Below are positions 38,589 to 62,060 of a stretch of 64,000 bases of DNA, one piece after another (position 1 is the stretch's first letter; each line of letters begins with the position of its first letter). Both the position numbers and the translations under genes were made by a program. This DNA is from the human T2T-CHM13v2.0 reference genome, Homo sapiens. The notes under the pieces were generated by a model. It saw nothing but the letters and a program-made list of their open reading frames with translations, did no database searches and had not been told where the DNA came from. The DNA lies in NCBI RefSeq assembly GCF_009914755.1, contig NC_060942.1. One strand, 5' to 3'.

Positions 38589-39816
38589 ATGAAGGCTGCC
38601 TACACCGCCTATCGATGCCTCACCAAAGACCTAGAAGGCTGCGCCATGAACCCGGAGCTGACAATGGAAAGTCTGGGCACTTTGCACGGGCCGGCCGGCG
38701 GCGGCAGTGGCGGGGGCGGCGGCGGGGGCGGCGGGGGCGGCGGCGGGGGCCCGGGCCATGAGCAGGAGCTGCTGGCCAGCCCCAGCCCCCACCACGCGGG
38801 CCGCGGCGCCGCTGGCTCGCTGCGGGGCCCTCCGCCGCCTCCAACCGCGCACCAGGAGCTGGGCACGGCGGCAGCGGCGGCAGCGGCGGCGTCGCGCTCG
38901 GCCATGGTCACCAGCATGGCCTCGATCCTGGACGGCGGCGACTACCGGCCCGAGCTCTCCATCCCGCTGCACCACGCCATGAGCATGTCCTGCGACTCGT
39001 CTCCGCCTGGCATGGGCATGAGCAACACCTACACCACGCTGACACCGCTCCAGCCGCTGCCACCCATCTCCACCGTGTCTGACAAGTTCCACCACCCTCA
39101 CCCGCACCACCATCCGCACCACCACCACCACCACCACCACCAGCGCCTGTCCGGCAACGTCAGCGGCAGCTTCACCCTCATGCGCGACGAGCGCGGGCTC
39201 CCGGCCATGAACAACCTCTACAGTCCCTACAAGGAGATGCCCGGCATGAGCCAGAGCCTGTCCCCGCTGGCCGCCACGCCGCTGGGCAACGGGCTAGGCG
39301 GCCTCCACAACGCGCAGCAGAGTCTGCCCAACTACGGTCCGCCGGGCCACGACAAAATGCTCAGCCCCAACTTCGACGCGCACCACACTGCCATGCTGAC
39401 CCGCGGTGAGCAACACCTGTCCCGCGGCCTGGGCACCCCACCTGCGGCCATGATGTCGCACCTGAACGGCCTGCACCACCCGGGCCACACTCAGTCTCAC
39501 GGGCCGGTGCTGGCACCCAGTCGCGAGCGGCCACCCTCGTCCTCATCGGGCTCGCAGGTGGCCACGTCGGGCCAGCTGGAAGAAATCAACACCAAAGAGG
39601 TGGCCCAGCGCATCACAGCGGAGCTGAAGCGCTACAGTATCCCCCAGGCGATCTTTGCGCAGAGGGTGCTGTGCCGGTCTCAGGGGACTCTCTCCGACCT
39701 GCTCCGGAATCCAAAACCGTGGAGTAAACTCAAATCTGGCAGGGAGACCTTCCGCAGGATGTGGAAGTGGCTTCAGGAGCCCGAGTTCCAGCGCATGTCC
39801 GCCTTACGCCTGGCAG
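38589..39816 (+). CDS. ONECUT2: One cut homeobox 2 (OC-2), coding exon 1 (409 codons + 1 nt, phase-1 intron); homeodomain exon is outside the window
   Basis: MKAAYTAYRC...MNPELTMESL, poly-Gly/Ala/His tracts, TP box TTLTPLQPLPPISTVSDKF and CUT domain EEINTKEVAQRITAELKRYSIPQAIFAQRVLCRSQGTLSDLLRNPKPWSKLKSGRETFRRMWKWLQEPEFQRMSALRLA (~39576-39816). Ends at the consensus donor CAG|GTAAG (39816/39817). Confidence 0.98.
38697..38750 (+). repeat. (GGC/GGG)n coding repeat, poly-Gly (G3-S-G14)
   Basis: Direct translation. Confidence 0.95.
38868..38891 (+). repeat. Coding poly-Ala (A8)
   Basis: GCG/GCA codons. Confidence 0.95.
39090..39140 (+). repeat. Coding His/Pro-rich tract ending in (CAC)8
   Basis: HHPHPHHHPHHHHHHHH. 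Confidence 0.95.
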
Positions 39817-40394: not shown

Positions 40395-43300
40395 GCCCCC
40401 GCGGGGAACCGGCGGCCAGGATACAACAGCGCTCCTGGAGCCCATCTCTGGCCTTGGCGTTGGCGCAGGGACTTTCTGACCGGGCTTGAGGGGCTCGGGC
40501 CAGCTCCAATGTCACTACCTACAGCGAGGGCAGGGTGTAAGGTTGAGAAGGTCACATTCACCGCTTTGGGAGGACGTGGGAGAAGAGACTGAGGTGGAAA
40601 GCGCTTTGCCTTGCTCACCGGCCGTCCTTGCCCCGGTCCCAGCGTTTGCTGGGATTTGCCAGGATTTGCCGGGGCTCCGGGAGACCCTGAGCACTCGCAG
40701 GAAGAGGTGCTGAGAAATTAAAAATTCAGGTTAGTTAATGCATCCCTGCCGCCGGCTGCAGGCTCCGCCTTTGCATTAAGCGGGCGCTGATTGTGCGCGC
40801 CTGGCGACCGCGGGGAGGACTGGCGGCCCGCGGGAGGGGACGGGTAGAGGCGCGGGTTACATTGTTCTGGAGCCGGCTCGGCTCTTTGTGCCTCCTCTAG
40901 CGGCCAAGCTGCGAGGTACAGCCCTCTATTGTTCTAGGAGCACAGAAACCTCCTGTGTGGGCGGCGGGTGCGCGAGCTAGAGGGAAAGATGCAGTAGTTA
41001 CTGCGACTGGCACGCAGTTGCGCGCTTTTGTGCGCACGGACCCCGCGCGGTGTGCGTGGCGACTGCGCTGCCCCTAGGAGCAAGCCACGGGCCCAGAGGG
41101 GCAAAATGTCCAGGTCCCCCGCTGGGAAGGACACACTATACCCTATGGCAAGCCAGGGTGGGCGACTTCCCATGGATCGGGTGGAGGGGGGTATCTTTCA
41201 GGATCGGCGGGCGGTCTAGGGGAACAATTCGTGGTGGCGATGATTTGCATAGCGCGGGTCTTGGGATGCGCGCGGTTCCGAGCCAGCCTCGCACAGCTCG
41301 CTTCCGGAGCTGCGAGCTCAGGTTTCCACCCCCGATCCCCCGGGCTTTCCTCGCACCGCTGAGCCCAGCTTGTGGGGTGCACTCGACCAACGCCCGACAG
41401 GGCTGGGGAATGTGACAGGCAGCAGGTTCACCCGGGCTTGGGGAGGGGGAGTTTCCGCTTTGACAGCATTTTCCTTTGCCGTCTGCTGGTGGATTCCTAT
41501 TCCCAGTCGGTAATCGCCCCGCAGTGTTGATCTAAGAAGGTAAAGAAAACTAGGTTTCCCTGCAAAGAGCCTCCCCCAAATCGGCGGACTCCGGATACTT
41601 TGAGTGGATTTAGAAATTTATGTAATCTTTCTCCTTTAGTTTATTTTTCATCCTCTCCTACAGTTTTCTCTGATTTGCTGTTGGTTCGGGGCAAGATAAA
41701 GCAGCCAGTAGAGAGCGATAATAATAGCGGCGGGAAATGAACTGGAGACTGGCTGACAGTTCTTAACATTTTGTCATAGATCCCCCCGAATGTCCCAGGC
41801 TGTCTCTGGTGGGTTTTAGTACCCGCCGGCTTCTTGGGCACCGGGGACCAGAAGGAACTTGGCAGCTGGTCTTAGGGGTACAGTTAAAGGCAGGATGACA
41901 GCTATTCTCCTGCTCATCTCAGAGCGCTGCCGCCCCCTCATGCCGGTCGCGCAAAGAACACAGCTTTTAAAAAACACGTGCCTTCTGCCCATATAGGTCT
42001 GAAAGTGATGAGGAAAGTAATGCTTCGCCTATTAGCGAGTTTCAGCTTTTAAAATGATCCCAAGCGTTGCTGAGATGAGAAAGCGTGGCATCCCGGGGGT
42101 CCTCAGCCCCACCCGCGCCCATGGTGCAAGTCTGCAGGGACAGGCCCGGGACAGCACTGCCCACGCTGCTAGATTTTCCGCAGAGGATCGCTGAAGCTGC
42201 CTTCGTGGGAGACAGAATGCCTCCTCCAGCGAGTGGAAAAGGCCTGCTGAGGACCCCGCTTTGCTCGAGCATTCAAATGTGTGTCTGTTTTATTACCCTG
42301 GGTTGAAAAGGGACAAGAGCTTTAGCCTTTTTATCTGGCCATTTTATCAGCAACTACAAGTGTGTTGAGTGGTTATTATTACATAGGAGGCTTTTCAGTT
42401 TGGGGTCAGTAGATCAGTCTCTTCAGACACTGATGCAGAAGCTGGGACTGGTAAGTAGGTATTATGTGCTCGGAGCGCTAGGGGACAGGAGCAAATGGAG
42501 AAGAAAAGCGGAGGCTTTCTCCGCCCGGAGTATCGATCGGAATCCCCGCCGGTACGCCGCAGAGGGCCCTCGCCGTTGGGCCCCGGGGGTTTAACAAGCC
42601 CAGCCGCTCCGCAGGCGGCTCGGCCGGACTCTCAGACCGGTGCCTGGAAGACACCGTCCCTGCCCCCCTCCCGCCAAACCTGCCTCTTCTCTTTCTCTCA
42701 TAGGTTATAGGTTCCCTTTCTCTCTCATTTTGGCCCCGCCCCCGGGTCCTGCCAAACAGCCAAGCAGGCCGGGGTTTAGGGGGCTCAGAATGAAGAGGTC
42801 TGATTTGGCCAGCGCCGGCAAAGCTCACCCTTAGGCGAGGTCACAACAGAGGCAGGTCCTTCCTGCCCAGCCTGCCGGTGTAGTCACAGCCAAGGGTGGC
42901 ACTTGAAAGGAAAAGGGAGAAAACTTCGGAGAAATTTAGATTGCCCCAACGTTAGATTTCAGAGAAATTGACTCCAAATGCACGGATTCGTTCGGAAAGG
43001 GCGGCTAAGTGGCAGGTGGTTGCAACCCCGCCCGGTCGGGCCTTCGCAGAGGTTCCCCAAGACCAGCCCTTGCAGGGCGGTTTTCAGCAACCTGACAAGA
43101 GGCGGCCAAGACAAATTTCTGCGGGTTCGAGCACACACTCTCGGGCGTTGGGCCCCAGAGACCTCTAAACCAAGCACAAACAAGAAGGGAGTGAGAGAAC
43201 CCAGGCTAGAACTTGCACGGGCATCCCACTGAGGAAAAGCGAGGCCTCGGTGGCAGGCATGTTTTCTTCCGACGCCCGAAAATCGAGCCGAGCGCCCGAC

Positions 43301-44650
43301 TACATTTACTGCAGAGGTTTCCGCCTCCAGTGAGCCCGGATCCCCCAGCGGCCTGCCCGGAGCTGGTCTCCAGTCCCCGCCGTAGTCCGACGCACGGCCC
43401 TCTCCTGGCAGCAAGCTCCCAGCGGCCAGTCTGAAGCCAATTCTGTTCAGGCGGCCGAGGGCCCTTAGCCAACCCACCATGATGTCGCCTGGGCCACCTG
43501 ATGCCCGCAGCGGCGGGACACGGCCCGGGCAGTGCGCAGTGGCTCCTGCTAGGGGCACCGCGTGCGTGCTTGTCTCCCGCTGCGCCGGGGACGTCCTTGG
43601 GTGACACGGGCCGCTGGGCACCTCCCAAGCCGAGGAAACGGACCCCCTTCGCAGAGTCTCGCGCCCACCCCCCAACCTCCCACCTCGTTTCTCGCTGCTA
43701 GGGCTCCCGACTCAGCCCACCTCTCCTGGCGGTTTAGTTAGGGATCAGAGCTGGAGAGGCTGAACGCAACCCGTGCCAGTACGGAACAGACGATATGTTT
43801 GCCTGCTAGCTGCTTGGATGAATAATTGAAAAGTTCGCTGCAGTCTGTGCTTCGTCAAGTCCCGGGTGCCGGGAGAACACCTTCCCAACACGCATCAGGG
43901 TGGGCGGGAGCGGGCAGAGGAGGCGGGACCCGAGGGAGGAGAGTGAACCCGAGCAGGAGAAGCAGCCCAGGCAGCCAGGCGCCCTCGATGCGAGAGGCTG
44001 GGCATTTATTTTTATTCCAGGCTTTCCACTGTGTGGTTATGTCACTTTCTCAAACAAATGTGTATATGGAGGGAGATCGATGCTGATAATGTTTAGAAGA
44101 TTAAAAGAGCATTAATGCTGGCAACAATAACGTAAACGTGTGGACCCAGATTTCATTGATCTGGAACTTGATCCGGCGCGTTTCCAGTAAGCCCGACGGC
44201 GCGCTCTTCCCAGCAGAGCGCTCACCAGCGCCACGGCCCCGCGGTTTTCCAGCGGTGCCGCTTCGCCAGCTCTGCGCGGGTTCTCCCGTCTGACCGCAGC
44301 TCCTCCCCCGCGAGGCCCCAGCCCGCCTTACTTCCCCGAGGTTTTCTCCTCCTCTCGCGGGGCTCTCTGCCCTCTGCACCCCCTCCCCCGACCTCTGCAC
44401 CACCCGCCCCTGTGCGCACACACCGCTACTTGCGCTTCCGGCGATCCGCCTGGGCGGCTGGGTCCGCGAAGCCAATGCGCTGAACGGTGCCCGAGTCTTC
44501 CTAACTATCCTGTGCTTGGCCGTTGCCACTGGGCCCTGGTGACTAAGCCCAAGTTTGAAAATGACGTGGCTAAAGCTGCCTGCTAACGGCAGAGCTTAAT
44601 CAGCCGCAGATCCCCTCCTATCCTCATCGGTTCTCGTACTAAAAAGGCTC
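40395..44650. promoter_or_regulatory. Cluster of intronic CpG islands (~40.4-41.6k and ~42.5-44.6k)
   Basis: High GC and CpG density, no repeats. Confidence 0.85.
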
Positions 44651-58650: not shown

Positions 58651-59208
58651 CTGCCCTTTGGATGCAGGGAGAAAGGGAAGCCTGCAGTGAGGACTGGTCC
58701 TCCGGAGGGGTCTAGGGAAACAGAGGGGAGGGACGTCTTAGGGAAAAGGAAGTAGGGGCAGGGGAGGGAGTTCAGGGATTTGAACATCACTTTAACATCT
58801 TCTAGAACTTGGGTAAGGACAGTATAGAGTAAAATCTGCCCTGAGAACTTGCACGTAGAGTAAGGAAGGTGGTTTCTCTTCAGTTTCAGCAGACTTGTGG
58901 CCAGGCACTGAGCTGGAGTTTGGAAACCCGGTTCCCTCTCAGAGCTCTGACATCCAGTTCTTCCAACTGAAAGTTTATTTGACCTCATTCCCATTAGGAT
59001 GGCTGCTGTAAAGCAAAATGAAAACAAAAAATAACAAATGTTGGCAAGGATGTGGAAAAATTGGAACCTTGTGTGCTGTTGGTGGGACTGTAAGATGGTG
59101 TAGCCACTGTGGAAATAGTATGGCAGTTCCTCAGAAATTTAAAATGTGAGTTATCACATGACCCAGAAATACCACTTCTGAGTATACACTCCAAAAGAAC
59201 TGAAAGCA
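58651..59208 (+). repeat. Inverted repeat, left arm (558 bp)
   Basis: Reverse complement of 59971-60530; the mirrored ORFs 58632-59027(-), 58994-59233(-) and 59910-60389(+) give near-identical peptides. Confidence 0.97.
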
Positions 59209-59760
59209 GGGTCTGAAAGAGATATTTGTACACCCGTGTTCACTGCAGTGTTATTCACAACAGCCAAAAGGTGGAAGCAACCCAACAGTTCATCAACAGG
59301 TGAATGGATAAACAAAATATGGAGTTTTCATACAGTGGAATATTATTTAGCCTTAAAAAGGAAGGAAAATCTGACATATACTATGGTCTGAATGAGTCTT
59401 GAGGATATTAAGCTAAGCTAAGTGAAATAAGCCAATCACCAAAAGACAAATACTATATGATTTCACTTATATGAAGTGTCTAGAATAGTCAAACTCATAG
59501 AAACGGAAAGTACAATGGTGCTTGCCAGGTGCCTGAGAGAGGGAAATGGAAACTTGTTTAATGAGTATAGAGTTTTAGTTCTGCAAGATATAAAAGTTCT
59601 GGAGATTGTACAAGAATGTGAATATACTTAACACTATGGAGCTATAACCTTAAAAGTAGTTAAGATGGTAAATTTTGTTGTGTATATTTTACCATAATTT
59701 CAAAGAAAGATTGTTTGTTATTTATATTGTATTGCTTGCTCAATTTTTAAAAAAAATTAA
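58982..59760 (+). mobile_element. L1MB-like 3' fragment
   Basis: CCCATTAGGATGGCT...AAATGTTGGCAAGGATGTGGAAAAATTGGAACC...GTTAAGATGGTAAATTTT. Confidence 0.85.
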
Positions 59761-59777
59761 AAATAGAAAAACAAAAA

Positions 59778-59950
59778 GCCAGGTGCGGTGGCATGTACCT
59801 GCAGTCCCAGCTACTGGGGAAGCTGAGGTGGGAGGATTGCTTGAGCCTGAGTTCTGGACTGTAGTGCCCCAGGCCCATCAATGTCCTCACTAAGTTCACC
59901 ATCAATACGGTGACTTCCTGGGAGTGGGGTATCACCAGGTTGGTGAGGGA
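59778..59950 (+). pseudogene. 7SL (SRP RNA) pseudogene, 5' part
   Basis: Alu-domain start followed by S-domain sequence absent from Alus: GTTCTGGACTGTAGTG...CACTAAGTTCACCATCAATACGGTGACTTCCTGGGAGTGGGG..TCACCAGGTTG. Confidence 0.88.
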
Positions 59951-59970
59951 AAAAACAACTACTGCCATGT

Positions 59971-60530
59971 TGCTTTCAGTTCTTTTGGAGTATATACTCA
60001 TAAGTGGTATTTCTGGGTCATGTGATAATTCACACTTTAAATTTCCGAGGAACTGCCATACTATTTCCATAGTGGCTACATCATCTTACAGTCCCACCAA
60101 CAGCACACAAGGTTCCAATTTTTCCACATCCTTGCCAACATTTGTTATTTTTTGTTTTCATTTTGTTTTGACAGCAGCCATCCTAATGGGAATGAGGTCA
60201 AATAAACTTTCAACTGGAAGAACTGGATGTCAGAGCTCTGAGGGGGAACCAGGTTTCCAAACTCCAGCTCAGTGCCTGGCCACAAGTCTGCTGAAACTGA
60301 AGAGAAACCACCTTCCCTACTCTATGTGCAAGTTCTCAAGGCAGATTTTACTCTATCCTGCCCTTACCCCAGGTTCTAGAAGATGTTAAAGTGATGTTCA
60401 AATTCCTGAACTCCCTCCCCTGCCCCTACTTCCTTTTCTCTAAGACGTCCCTCCCCTCTGCTTCCCTAGACCCCTCCGGAGGACCAGTGCTCACTGCAGG
60501 CTTCCCTTTCTCTCTGCATCCAAAGGTCAG
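59971..60530 (-). repeat. Inverted repeat, right arm (560 bp)
   Basis: About 26 differences from the left arm on manual alignment. Confidence 0.97.
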
Positions 60531-60532
60531 TT

Positions 60533-60608
60533 GTGTTTGCTCAGTAGTGGGATACTGCCTGTGAATAGCCACTGTACTCCAGCAGCTTAAAACTCCATTT
60601 CTTAAAAA
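60533..60608 (+). pseudogene. 7SL pseudogene, 3' part
   Basis: TCAGTAGTGGGATACTGCCTGTGAATAGCCACTGTACTCCAGC matches 7SL TCAGTAGTGGGATCGCGCCTGTGAATAGCCACTGCACTCCAGC. Confidence 0.85.
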
Positions 60609-60635
60609 CATTTTTTATCAAAAGTTCTGCCACTC

Positions 60636-61076
60636 CACTATTCACAATAGCAAAGACTTGGAACCAACCCAAATGTCCATCAGTGATAGACTGGATTAAG
60701 AAAATGTGACACATATACACCATGGAATACTATGCAGCCATAAAAAAGGATGAGTTCATGTCCTTTGCAGTGACATGGATGAAGCTGAAAACCATCATTC
60801 TCAGCCAACTATCGCAAGGACAGAAAAGCAAACGCTGCATGCTCTCACTCGTAGGTGGGAGTTGAACAATGAGAATACATGGACACAGGGCGGGGAACAT
60901 CACACACTGGGGCCTGTTGTGGGGTAGGGGGCTGGGGGAGGGATAGCATTAGAAGAAATACCTAATGTAAAAGACGAGTTGATGGGTGCAGCAAACCAAC
61001 ATGGCACATGTATACGTATGCAACAAACCTGCACGTTGTGCACATGTACCCTAGAATTTAAAGTATAATAATAAAA
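60636..61076 (+). mobile_element. L1PA 3' end (5'-truncated) with 16-bp TSD
   Basis: CTATTCACAATAGCAAAGACTTGGAACCAACCCAAATG...TAAAGTATAATAATAAAA. TSD AAAAGTTCTGCCACTC at 60620-60635 and 61077-61092. Confidence 0.95.
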
Positions 61077-61099
61077 AAAAGTTCTGCCACTCAAAGAGA

Positions 61100-62060
61100 A
61101 CCACATTAATATTTTGCTTTTATTAAAATTATTTTTAATTATTTAAGCAATGCATTAAAACATTCTACTTATAAAAATCAAAACATTAATGATCAGAATA
61201 AAGTCCTCTTTGCCTATCTCCTTTAATACCAGTCTTCTTCATTACTTCCCAGCAGTAACCACTCTTCTGGCTACAAAGAGTGGGTCTGCCAATCCAGGCA
61301 CTTCCAGTGCATTTATTTACCTACATATGTACTCATATAAATTGTATAAATAGGTAGAAAGACAGATAGATAGATCGATAGGTATCTTAGGTTTGCGTAT
61401 TGTTTTCACATAAGTGGCATCACACTGCATGCATCATTCCAAAGCTCCTTCTTTCCTTTGATAGTATGCCTACCCAGCTTCTACATATAAATGAGGTTCT
61501 TGCAACCCACATTTATTGCATAGTGTCCTATGGCATGACTATTTTCATTTATTTAGCCATTTCTGTTTTGATGGGCAATTAGGCTGTTTACCATTTTTGG
61601 TTGTTTGCATTATTTGCTAAGCAGTGATGAGTGAACATCCTTGTACACACCTCCCTGTGTACCCATGGGAATGTTTCCTAGGGTGGACACCGAGAAGCAA
61701 AATGAGAGGTCATGGAGATGCACATACTGTAATTTTGATAGGCACTACCACACTGTCTTCGAAATTGGCTCCCCATCAGCAGTGGAGGAGAGAGCTCCTA
61801 TTTCCCTGACACTTGCCAGAAGTTAATATATTAGCCATTTTACTTTTTTTTGCATAGTTGCTGGATTTAAAAATAACATTTTGTGGTTGCTTTATTTTGT
61901 TATATTTTTATGATTTCTAATGAACCTTGATATAATCATATACTTGCTGGTCATATATATTTCCTTTTCTGAGAATGTCCTGTTCATATCCTTGTTTGGC
62001 ATTGTTTTTTATATATTCTGGATGCAAATTTTTGCTTTACAAATTACAAATGTGGTCTCA
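61100..62060 (-). mobile_element. Old L1 (L1ME-like) antisense fragment
   Basis: TTGATGGGCAATTAGGCTGTTT...GTGAACATCCTTGTACA...TTTCCCTGACACTTGCCA. Confidence 0.65.

What the first reader, a model, noticed from the sequence alone, without database searches (positions are those of the whole stretch)
58651..60530. ~560-bp inverted duplication in ONECUT2 intron 1: potential long pre-mRNA hairpin
Seen: 58651-59208 is the reverse complement of 59971-60530, with a 762-bp spacer. Manual alignment gives ~26 differences (2 single-base indels, mostly transitions), about 95% identity. Each arm spans ~330 bp of apparently non-repeat sequence plus the first ~225 bp of the L1MB fragment, so this is a local duplication and not two independent insertions. 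Established: long intramolecular dsRNA in introns is an ADAR substrate and can affect splicing or yield small RNAs, and close inverted repeats mediate micro-inversions. Inference: the ONECUT2 pre-mRNA can fold into a stem longer and better paired than a typical inverted Alu pair, and the spacer may be inversion-polymorphic. Function is unproven.
Basis: partly seen in the sequence, partly recalled or inferred. Interest (0 to 1): 0.8.

Follow-up and report, generated by a model that had tools for sequence, protein, structure and literature searches.

The report
Inverted local duplication in ONECUT2 intron
A 558-base piece of the first ONECUT2 intron was copied backwards into a dead 7SL RNA gene 0.76 kb downstream, which gives the pre-mRNA a very long potential hairpin and supplies the splice site of an annotated alternative last exon; no function is shown.

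Summary
Window 58651-59208 is the reverse complement of 59971-60530: 534 matches, 24 mismatches and 2 one-base indels, 95.4% identity, with a 762-nt spacer.

It is a local duplication. The 334-nt non-L1 part has only these two copies in the whole genome. The 224-nt L1 part is 96% identical between the arms and at most 80-83% identical to any other L1 copy.

New here:
- **Direction of copying.** The left arm is the source. The right arm is an inverted copy inserted into a 7SL (SRP RNA) retro-pseudogene, whose two halves flank it.
- **Mode of insertion.** There is no poly(A) tail and no target-site duplication, roughly 12-25 nt of target are lost, and one junction has a 3-nt microhomology. This fits a templated inverted insertion during break repair or template switching.
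- **Age.** My estimate is roughly 10-45 Myr (K2P 0.045).
- **Hairpin.** The sense RNA folds at -1232 kcal/mol, against -524 for shuffles, with 544 of 558 left-arm nucleotides paired.
- **Alternative exon.** The annotated alternative terminal exon 60175-61216 takes its acceptor, 71-codon tail and stop codon from the right arm. The stem would bury that acceptor.

Function is untested. Genome-wide surveys have already described this class of structure.

The parts
58651..59208 (+). Left arm, the source copy of the duplication. The true copied stretch may start at about 58655.
   Evidence: Contiguous with its flanks on both sides. L1 continues from 59208 into 59209 and onward without a break. 95.4% identical to the reverse complement of 59971-60530.
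58651..58984 (.). Unique (non-interspersed-repeat) part of the left arm, 334 nt
   Evidence: The whole-genome DNA search finds only this stretch and its inverted copy (2 matches, 100% and 95%).
58985..59777 (+). Old 5'-truncated L1 fragment (C-terminal part of ORF2, 3'UTR and A-rich tail). Its first 224 nt lie in the left arm.
   Evidence: 59191-59379 translates to L1 ORF2p residues 1181-1243 of 1275 (8sxt_A, E 5.2e-14). 58985-59208 has 5373 genomic candidates, the best non-arm copies 80-83% identical. The 3' end is read from the sequence: an A-rich run directly precedes the 7SL start. Pfam gave no family.
59209..59970 (+). 762-nt spacer (hairpin loop): the rest of the L1 fragment plus the 5' part of the 7SL pseudogene
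59778..59970 (+). 5' part of the 7SL (SRP RNA) retro-pseudogene, gene positions 1 to about 185-195
   Evidence: Rfam RF00017: 57.8 bits, E 1.9e-14, model 1-215, cut at the 3' end. 139 matches, 26 mismatches and 3 gaps against a functional 7SL gene (L010, 293 bits).
59958..59970 (+). About 12 nt at the inner junction of uncertain origin: diverged 7SL, or filler copied from 60551-60562
   Evidence: A 7-nt exact match, 59959-59965 = 60552-60558, reached by 53 of 2000 shuffles. Marginal.
59971..60530 (-). Right arm, the inverted copy inserted into the 7SL pseudogene. The last 3-4 nt may belong to 7SL.
   Evidence: Flanked on both sides by collinear 7SL sequence. At 60527 the window carries the 7SL base, not the source base.
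60531..60623 (+). 3' part of the 7SL pseudogene (gene positions about 208/220-299) with its A-rich tail
   Evidence: Weak as a structure match (RF00017 7.4 bits, E 5.8, model 209-299). 43 matches, 5 mismatches and 3 gaps against the functional gene over 60538-60585. In 3 of 5 uninterrupted paralogous pseudogenes this piece follows the 5' piece on the same strand, 45 nt downstream in L006.
60145..60174 (+). Pyrimidine-rich tract and AG acceptor of the annotated alternative exon, made from the antisense of the L1 A-rich stretch in the right arm
   Evidence: 73% pyrimidines, ends in CAG just before 60175. The exon start 60175 comes from the hub's RefSeq table. In the predicted fold 40 of 41 nt of 60140-60180 are paired to 59000-59039.
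60175..61216 (+). Annotated alternative terminal exon of ONECUT2 (other transcripts). It is built from the right arm, the 7SL 3' part, a younger L1 fragment and unique DNA.
   Evidence: Hub annotation. Spliced in silico to exon 1 it adds 71 codons and stops at 60387-60389, inside the right arm. AATAAA at 61197 lies 19 nt before the exon end.
60636..61076 (+). Younger 5'-truncated L1 3' fragment with a poly(A) end, flanked by a perfect 16-nt target-site duplication (60620-60635 and 61077-61092)
   Evidence: The translation in frame 60602 resembles the L1 ORF2p C-terminus as read by eye; this was not searched separately.

Best explanation
This is a relic of one DNA-level mutation: a templated, inverted, short-range insertion.

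**Origin.** A break or stalled fork arose inside an old 7SL (SRP RNA) retro-pseudogene that sits just after the tail of an old L1 fragment in ONECUT2 intron 1. Repair copied about 555 nt from roughly 1.3 kb upstream (334 nt of unique intron plus the first 224 nt of the L1 fragment) onto the opposite strand. Synthesis was probably primed at a 3-nt AGG microhomology. The other end was joined without homology, and about 12-25 nt of the 7SL target were lost. The two copies have since drifted apart neutrally to 4.5% divergence, which points to roughly 10-45 Myr, most likely in the ape or Old World monkey stem.

**Consequences (inferred, not shown).**
1. Any ONECUT2 pre-mRNA carries a 558-bp, about 97% paired hairpin with a 762-nt loop. 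This is an expected nuclear ADAR and dsRNA-helicase substrate that is normally discarded with the intron.
2. The inversion placed the antisense of an A-rich L1 stretch (a pyrimidine tract plus AG) in the sense orientation of the gene. RefSeq annotates an alternative terminal exon starting exactly there. Its 71-codon tail and stop codon lie in the right arm, and the product would keep the CUT domain but lack the exon-2-encoded part.
3. The parental arm can base-pair over that acceptor, so hairpin formation should repress the exon.

The confidence given is for the origin (local inverted copy, right arm inserted into the 7SL pseudogene by a DNA-level templated event). The RNA-level consequences are less certain.
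For: - **Real duplication:**. Only two genomic copies of the unique part. The L1 parts are 96% alike, against at most 83% to other L1 copies.
- **Direction of copying:** the left arm is continuous with the L1 reading frame beyond 59208. The right arm splits a 7SL pseudogene: RF00017 positions 1 to about 195 lie on its left (E 1.9e-14) and about 208/220-299 on its right. The two pieces are adjacent and collinear in 3 of 5 uninterrupted paralogues and in the functional genes.
- **Junctions:** at the outer junction the source reads AGGGCA, 7SL reads AGGTCA, and the window carries the 7SL T. The inner junction shares at most 1 nt. There is no poly(A) or poly(T) at either end and no adjacent direct repeat.
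- **Neutral drift:** differences are spread as randomly placed ones would be (the largest clean interval of 85 nt is reached by 1629 of 5000 random placements). Of 8 polarised L1 substitutions, 3 are derived in the left arm, 4 in the right and 1 is ambiguous.
- **Fold:** -1231.6 kcal/mol, against -523.6 +/- 12.6 for 8 dinucleotide shuffles and -517.4 when the right arm is flipped. 544 of 558 left-arm nt are paired, and the longest helix is 123 bp.
- **Exon:** acceptor, reading frame, stop codon and poly(A) signal. The CUT domain lies in exon 1, aa 331-406.
Against: - No orthologous empty site could be examined because no primate genomes are in the tools. The pre-insertion target sequence is inferred from a pseudogene only 84% identical to its gene.
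- The exact breakpoints, the size of the deletion and the 3-nt microhomology are therefore uncertain, and a 3-nt match is weak evidence on its own.
- Break repair and replication template switching cannot be told apart from the sequence.
- The age rests on recalled substitution rates. Gene conversion between the arms would make the event look younger, although no conversion tract is visible.
- The hairpin is a thermodynamic prediction only. No editing, duplex or expression data were available.
- The alternative exon is known to me only from the hub's annotation table, and its transcript support and abundance are unknown.
Confidence: 0.8

Rival explanations
1. Selected regulatory hairpin. The stem is maintained because it does something: it gates the alternative exon, feeds ADAR or Dicer, or marks the intron.
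For: The stem is exceptionally stable and buries an annotated splice acceptor. Long, highly paired dsRNAs are rare in genes (Andrews and Bass preprint, section read; Barak et al., passages).
Against: The arms differ at 26 positions spread like random placements. Changes are derived about equally in both arms. Only 9 of the 24 mismatches are G:U in the sense RNA, against 10 on the antisense strand, so there is no strand preference. Nothing suggests constraint beyond young age. Three searches for ONECUT2 paired with 'inverted repeat', 'A-to-I' or 'intronic polyadenylation' listed 8, 10 and 1 papers; none concerns this structure by title or abstract.
Confidence: 0.1
2. RNA-mediated (L1 machinery) insertion of an antisense transcript of 58651-59208 into the 7SL pseudogene.
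For: The site lies among retroposed elements: a 7SL pseudogene and two L1 fragments, one with a perfect 16-nt target-site duplication. A 7-nt identical word lies on both sides of the insert.
Against: There is no poly(A) at the copy's 3' end, which would be a poly(T) run before 59971 on the + strand. The 7-nt word is not adjacent to the junctions and 53 of 2000 shuffles reach it. Target sequence is lost rather than duplicated.
Confidence: 0.04
3. Two independent L1 insertions in opposite orientation, or L1 twin priming.
For: Both arms contain the same L1 segment.
Against: Each arm also holds 334 nt found nowhere else in the genome. The L1 parts are 96% alike against at most 83% for other copies. 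The arms duplicate the same L1 segment rather than being adjacent segments, as twin priming would give.
Confidence: 0.01
4. Assembly artefact: a spurious fold-back in the T2T assembly.
For: None found.
Against: The arms differ by 4.6%, with changes derived on both sides; artefactual copies would be identical. The right arm sits precisely inside an old pseudogene. An annotated transcript exon runs from inside the arm through its outer boundary (hub table).
Confidence: 0.01

Closest known systems
Long, highly paired intramolecular dsRNAs / inverted duplicated sequences in human pre-mRNAs (Barak et al. 2020, PMC7006430; Andrews and Bass 2025 preprint, PMC11838218)
   Same: Both arms lie in one transcription unit. 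The stem is over 300 bp and nearly perfect. It pairs an intron with an alternative exon, which is the situation Andrews and Bass describe for 57 of the 58 long, highly paired dsRNAs that overlap coding exons (section read).
   Different: Most catalogued cases pair two separate LINE or Alu insertions; here 60% of each arm is unique DNA and the pair arose by one local duplication. Identity of 95.4% is just under Barak's >96% cut-off, so it should be absent from their list of 197. Their supplement has no 'ONECUT2' and 4 'chr18' rows, of which I saw 2, at 12.96 and 45.80 Mb. Whether dsRNAscan lists it I could not see, because bioRxiv supplements are closed.
Templated or inverted insertions at DNA breaks and microhomology-mediated template switching (foldback, MMBIR, polymerase-theta end joining; PMC11724301 and PMC8421209, abstracts seen in the listing only)
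   Same: The donor is nearby and intact, the orientation is inverted, one junction has a short microhomology, there is possibly a second short filler, the target has a small deletion, and retrotransposition hallmarks are absent.
   Different: The copy is about 555 nt long. The yeast foldback insertions in that abstract are mostly about 5-34 bp. Here the event is a fixed germline one and millions of years old.
Inverted Alu pairs in introns (ADAR substrates; their effects on splicing and circular RNA are recalled from general knowledge)
   Same: An intronic inverted repeat that can form dsRNA close to a splice site.
   Different: About twice as long and much better paired than the Alu-type pairs in this window (at most 261 nt, 72-90%), with a far shorter loop.
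Exonisation of antisense transposable-element sequence as alternative terminal exons (recalled from general knowledge)
   Same: The acceptor is a pyrimidine tract plus AG that arises from the antisense of an A-rich L1 stretch, and the poly(A) signal lies downstream.
   Different: The antisense orientation was produced by a local inverted duplication of an already resident L1 piece, not by an antisense insertion. The exon therefore has a perfectly matching cis partner upstream.

Membership tests
Long nearly perfect inverted duplicated sequence in a pre-mRNA (Barak et al. 2020 definition) | Arms longer than 300 bp | tested here: met
   558 and 560 nt
Long nearly perfect inverted duplicated sequence in a pre-mRNA (Barak et al. 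2020 definition) | Identity between arms above 96% | tested here: not met
   95.4% over 560 columns and 95.7% over ungapped columns; just below the cut-off quoted
Long, highly paired dsRNA (Andrews and Bass 2025 definition) | More than 300 bp and more than 96% of nucleotides base paired | tested here: met
   544 of 558 left-arm nt (97.5%) pair with the right arm in the RNAfold minimum-energy structure, G:U included. This was computed with ViennaRNA, not with dsRNAscan.
Long, highly paired dsRNA (either definition) | Both arms in one transcript | tested here: met
   Both lie in intron 1 of NM_004852.3 according to the hub table (exon 1 ends at 39816, the gene runs to 94260). This rests on annotation, not on RNA data.
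ADAR-edited dsRNA | Clusters of A-to-G mismatches in RNA over both arms | not testable with these tools
   No RNA-seq or editing database is available. Three ONECUT2 literature searches found nothing on it.
Templated inverted insertion (break repair or template switch) | An intact donor nearby, with the copy in inverted orientation interrupting an unrelated sequence | tested here: met
   The donor is continuous with its flanks. The copy splits a 7SL pseudogene.
Templated inverted insertion (break repair or template switch) | Microhomology at the junctions | tested here: inconclusive
   The outer junction shares AGG (5 of 6 nt, AGGNCA) and the inner junction at most 1 nt. The target is inferred from a degenerate pseudogene.
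L1-mediated retroposition (target-primed reverse transcription) | Poly(A) tail at the 3' end of the insert | tested here: not met
   No T-run before 59971 and no A-run after 60530
L1-mediated retroposition (target-primed reverse transcription) | Target-site duplication flanking the insert | tested here: not met
   The best shared word is 7 nt, is not adjacent to the junctions, and is reached by 53 of 2000 shuffles. 7SL positions are lost, not duplicated.
7SL (SRP RNA) retro-pseudogene, the target of the insertion | Match to Metazoa_SRP including the S domain that Alu elements lack, plus an A-rich tail | tested here: met
   RF00017 model 1-215 at 57.8 bits, E 1.9e-14. This is below the gathering score of 70 because the match is cut off and decayed. 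84% identical to a 293-bit functional gene. The A-rich tail at 60604-60623 is read. That Alu lacks the S domain is recalled.
L1 twin-priming inversion | The inverted and direct segments are adjacent parts of one L1 RNA and consist of L1 sequence only | tested here: not met
   The arms are duplicates of each other and 334 of 558 nt are non-L1

The most novel reading that the evidence does not exclude
One mutational event created both a new alternative terminal exon of ONECUT2 and its own cis-acting mask. The exon would give a protein with the CUT domain but without the exon-2-encoded part. The acceptor lies in the inverted copy, and the parental copy 1.1 kb upstream pairs over it in a 558-bp stem. 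Use of the truncated isoform would then depend on dsRNA-unwinding or dsRNA-editing activity (DHX9, ADAR1) and on transcription speed. That would make this a primate-specific switch on a developmental and neuroendocrine-cancer transcription factor.
Probability: 0.1. Interest if true: 0.6.

Novelty: new member of a known kind. Interest (0 to 1): 0.3.

Why it matters
If the hairpin forms in cells, it is one of the relatively few long, almost perfect dsRNAs inside a human protein-coding gene. Published surveys count about 2,000 genome-wide with 88% intergenic, and 197 within RefSeq transcripts at >96% identity.

Most such structures pair two repeat insertions. This one has a fully readable birth record: donor, target, junctions and relative age. 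That makes it a clean natural example of a several-hundred-base inverted templated insertion fixed in the germline. It also shows how such an event can exonise sequence while creating the exon's antisense partner.

For ONECUT2 biology it matters only if the alternative isoform is made in meaningful amounts, which is unknown. Otherwise this is a neutral structural relic.

Tried and rejected
- **Target-site duplication.** MAFFT suggested that 7SL-like sequence lies on both sides of the insert. The direct test found only a non-adjacent 7-nt word, reached by 53 of 2000 shuffles, so a duplication is rejected. I keep the word only as a possible filler.
- **Gene conversion between the arms.** No unusually long clean tract was found: the largest is 85 nt, reached by 1629 of 5000 random placements.
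- **Error-prone copying.** Among the 8 polarisable L1 sites the copy shows no excess of derived changes: 3 left, 4 right, 1 ambiguous. The numbers are small, and the 15 substitutions and 2 indels in the unique part could not be polarised.
- **Pfam on three stop-free L1 translations.** No family was found (0 of 3). The L1 origin was shown through the PDB ORF2p chains instead.
- **Rfam over the whole region.** The scan forces the 3' half of the SRP model into the right arm (32.8 bits). Scanning the two flanks separately was more informative. The weak mir-1268 match at 59776-59827 (26.5 bits, gathering score 83) is the Alu-like 5' domain of the 7SL pseudogene, not a miRNA gene.
- **Search of the own genome with family RF00017.** It returned an error. 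Functional 7SL genes were reached with a DNA query instead.
- **Primate orthologues, pangenome haplotypes, and editing, duplex or small-RNA data.** No tool holds them, so dating, polymorphism and RNA-level behaviour remain inference.
- **Strand bias of the transitions.** There are 15 purine and 4 pyrimidine transitions on the left-arm strand in the list, and the arm is 58% purine. I ran no formal test and draw no conclusion.
Full report
**1. The observation**

The inverted repeat is real and sits at the stated coordinates.
- The repeat finder reports three ungapped inverted blocks: 163 nt at 96%, 224 nt at 92% and 199 nt at 96%. They tile 58651-59208 against 59971-60530, with 762 nt between the inner ends.
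- A global alignment of the 558-nt left arm with the reverse complement of the 560-nt right arm has 534 matches, 24 mismatches and two 1-nt gaps, which is 95.4% identity and K2P distance 0.0446. Of the mismatches, 19 are transitions, 5 are transversions and 3 lie at CpG.
- With 60 nt of flank added on each side, the similarity ends abruptly at both boundaries.
- In the whole 64-kb window there are 72 inverted pairs of 80 nt or more. The 25 longest are listed; among these, the ones outside the finding are at most 261 nt, 72-90% complementary and at least 2.2 kb apart, the pattern of dispersed repeats.

**2. What each arm is made of**
- The outer 334 nt (58651-58984) match only themselves and the other arm in the 3.1-Gb genome that holds the window: 2 matches, at 100% and 95%.
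- The inner 224 nt (58985-59208) are a high-copy repeat, with 5373 first-look candidates of which 40 were scored. The other arm is 96% identical, and the next best copies are 80-83% identical.
- The sequence running on from the left arm translates to residues 1181-1243 of the 1275-residue human L1 ORF2 protein (8sxt_A, E 5.2e-14). The repeat is therefore the 5'-truncated 3' end of an old L1, in + orientation.
- This settles that the pair is one local duplication and not two insertions.

**3. Which arm is the copy, and where it landed**

The left arm is continuous with its surroundings: the L1 reading frame crosses 59208/59209. The right arm interrupts a 7SL (SRP RNA) retro-pseudogene.
- Left of the arm, 59778-59975 matches Rfam Metazoa_SRP model positions 1-215 (57.8 bits, E 1.9e-14, cut off at the 3' end).
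- Right of the arm, 60521-60603 matches model positions 209-299. As a structure match this is weak (7.4 bits, E 5.8).
- I fetched other 7SL copies from the same genome. In 3 of 5 of them (L005, L006, L007) the two pieces lie on the same strand in the right order, 45 nt apart in L006. The other two copies (L004, L008) lack the 3' piece.
- Three loci on contig 14 score 293, 293 and 286 bits as full-length SRP RNA. Against one of them the left flank aligns to gene positions 1 to about 195 (139 matches, 26 mismatches, 3 gaps over 59778-59942). The right flank aligns from about 220 onward (43 matches, 5 mismatches, 3 gaps over 60538-60585).
- The order of events is therefore: old L1 fragment, then the 7SL retro-pseudogene just after its A-rich tail, then the inverted copy inserted into the pseudogene.

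**4. How the insertion happened (inference from the junctions)**
- **Outer junction.** The source reads ...CCAAAGGGCAG and the 7SL gene reads ...GCAGGTCAAAAC. The window reads ...CCAAAGGTCAG followed by 7SL-like sequence. The window base at 60527 is the 7SL base, so the copy probably ends at AGG, a 3-nt microhomology (5 of 6 nt over AGGNCA).
- **Inner junction.** Source and target share at most one base.
- **Target loss.** About 12-25 nt of 7SL are missing, roughly positions 196-207 or more.
- **No retroposition hallmarks.** There is no A-run or T-run at either end of the insert and no flanking direct repeat.
- **Possible filler.** The only shared word is 7 nt (59959-59965 = 60552-60558). It is not adjacent to the junctions and 53 of 2000 shuffles reach it. 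It may be a second short templated filler, or chance.
- **Geometry.** The 3' end on the right side of a break in the pseudogene can anneal at the AGG-containing site on the minus strand 1.9 kb upstream. It would then be extended rightwards for about 555 nt and be end-joined to the other side.
- **Pathway.** This is the pattern of templated inverted insertions at breaks and of microhomology-mediated template switching. I saw only the abstracts of PMC11724301 and PMC8421209 in the listing. I cannot tell break repair from a replication-fork switch.

**5. Age and mode of evolution**
- K2P between the arms is 0.0446. With recalled primate substitution rates of about 0.5-2.2e-9 per site per year, this gives about 10-45 Myr. 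I read that as the ape or catarrhine stem.
- The 7SL pseudogene is 84% identical to its gene and so is several times older.
- The 26 differences are spread as randomly placed ones would be: 17 in the 334-nt unique part and 9 in the 224-nt L1 part.
- I used 20 other L1 copies as outgroup for the 8 L1 substitutions. Three are derived in the left arm, 4 in the right and 1 is ambiguous.
- Nine of the 24 mismatches are G:U in the sense RNA and 10 in the antisense RNA.
- Nothing here indicates selection for pairing, gene conversion or a mutagenic copying step. The arms look neutral.

**6. RNA-level potential**
- The 1880-nt sense RNA folds with a minimum free energy of -1231.6 kcal/mol.
- 544 of 558 left-arm nucleotides pair with the right arm, and the longest uninterrupted helix is 123 bp.
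- Eight dinucleotide shuffles give -523.6 +/- 12.6, and a control with the right arm flipped to direct orientation gives -517.4.
- By established knowledge, such a stem is an ADAR and dsRNA-helicase substrate if it forms. Being intronic, it would be nuclear and short-lived.
- No RNA data were available, so this remains a prediction.

**7. The annotated exon**

The hub's RefSeq table lists an exon of other ONECUT2 transcripts at 60175-61216.
- Its acceptor is a 73% pyrimidine tract ending in CAG at 60174. This is the antisense of the A-rich L1 stretch, so it lies inside the right arm.
- Spliced in silico to exon 1 (409 codons, phase 1), it adds 71 codons and stops at 60387-60389, still inside the right arm.
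- AATAAA at 61197 lies 19 nt before the exon end.
- Exon 1 encodes the CUT domain, aa 331-406 (E 4.8e-34). The product would lack everything encoded by exon 2, which from general knowledge includes the homeodomain; I did not check this because exon 2 is outside the window.
- The rest of the exon is the 7SL 3' part, a younger L1 3' fragment (60636-61076) with a perfect 16-nt target-site duplication, and unique DNA.
- In the predicted fold 40 of 41 nt of 60140-60180 are paired with 59000-59039. The stem should therefore hide this acceptor. This is a testable model, not a result.

**8. Inversion polymorphism**
- In this assembly the spacer is in its original orientation, shown by L1 continuity on the left and 7SL collinearity across the right arm.
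- The longest perfectly identical run between the arms is 84 bp. From recall, this is below the identity tracts usually needed for efficient homologous recombination in mammalian cells.
- I consider recurrent inversion unlikely, but it is untested.

**9. Comparison with what is known**
- Andrews and Bass (preprint PMC11838218; I read sections 7 and 10 and found passages) predict 5.1 million human dsRNAs. Of these, 2,018 are over 300 bp and over 96% paired, mostly between inverted LINEs, and 88% are intergenic.
- In the same study 58 overlap protein-coding exons, and all but one of these pair an exon with an intron. The present structure fits that description (97.5% paired, exon-intron).
- I could not check whether it is in their tables because the supplements are closed. 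The main text mentions neither ONECUT nor chr18.
- Barak et al. (PMC7006430; passages) list 197 human inverted duplicated sequences over 300 bp and over 96% identical within RefSeq transcripts. At 95.4% this one falls just below the cut-off.
- Their supplement holds no 'ONECUT2' and 4 'chr18' rows. I saw two of them, at 12.96 and 45.80 Mb, which are not this locus.
- Searches for ONECUT2 with 'inverted repeat', 'A-to-I' and 'intronic polyadenylation' listed 8, 10 and 1 papers. None concerns this structure by title or abstract (listings only).

**10. Verdict**

The kind of object is known and catalogued genome-wide, and nothing in the sequence points to selection. It is a new, well-documented member of a known kind. 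Its interest is modest unless the exon-masking model proves true.

Noticed in passing
window 60620-61092: A 441-nt 5'-truncated L1 3' fragment (60636-61076, poly(A) end) is flanked by a perfect 16-nt target-site duplication (60620-60635 and 61077-61092). It inserted just after the A-rich tail of the 7SL pseudogene and now lies inside the annotated alternative exon.
   Followed up: partly
window 59776-59827: Weak Rfam match to mir-1268 (26.5 bits, gathering score 83). It coincides with the Alu-like 5' domain of the 7SL pseudogene and is most likely not a miRNA gene.
   Followed up: partly
window 41997-44233: A second annotated alternative exon. Spliced in silico to exon 1 it adds 18 codons before a stop, giving 427 aa, again without the exon-2-encoded part. 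The acceptor reads ...CCCATATAG just before 41997.
   Followed up: partly
window 61311-61342: A short AT-rich imperfect palindrome (21-nt overlapping arms, 81% complementary) just downstream of the alternative exon's end.
   Followed up: no
L010, L011, L012 (contig 14 of the same genome): Three full-length SRP RNA genes (293, 293 and 286 bits) lie within about 0.3 Mb of each other. I used them as the reference for the pseudogene. L010 and L011 differ at 4 of 300 positions.
   Followed up: partly
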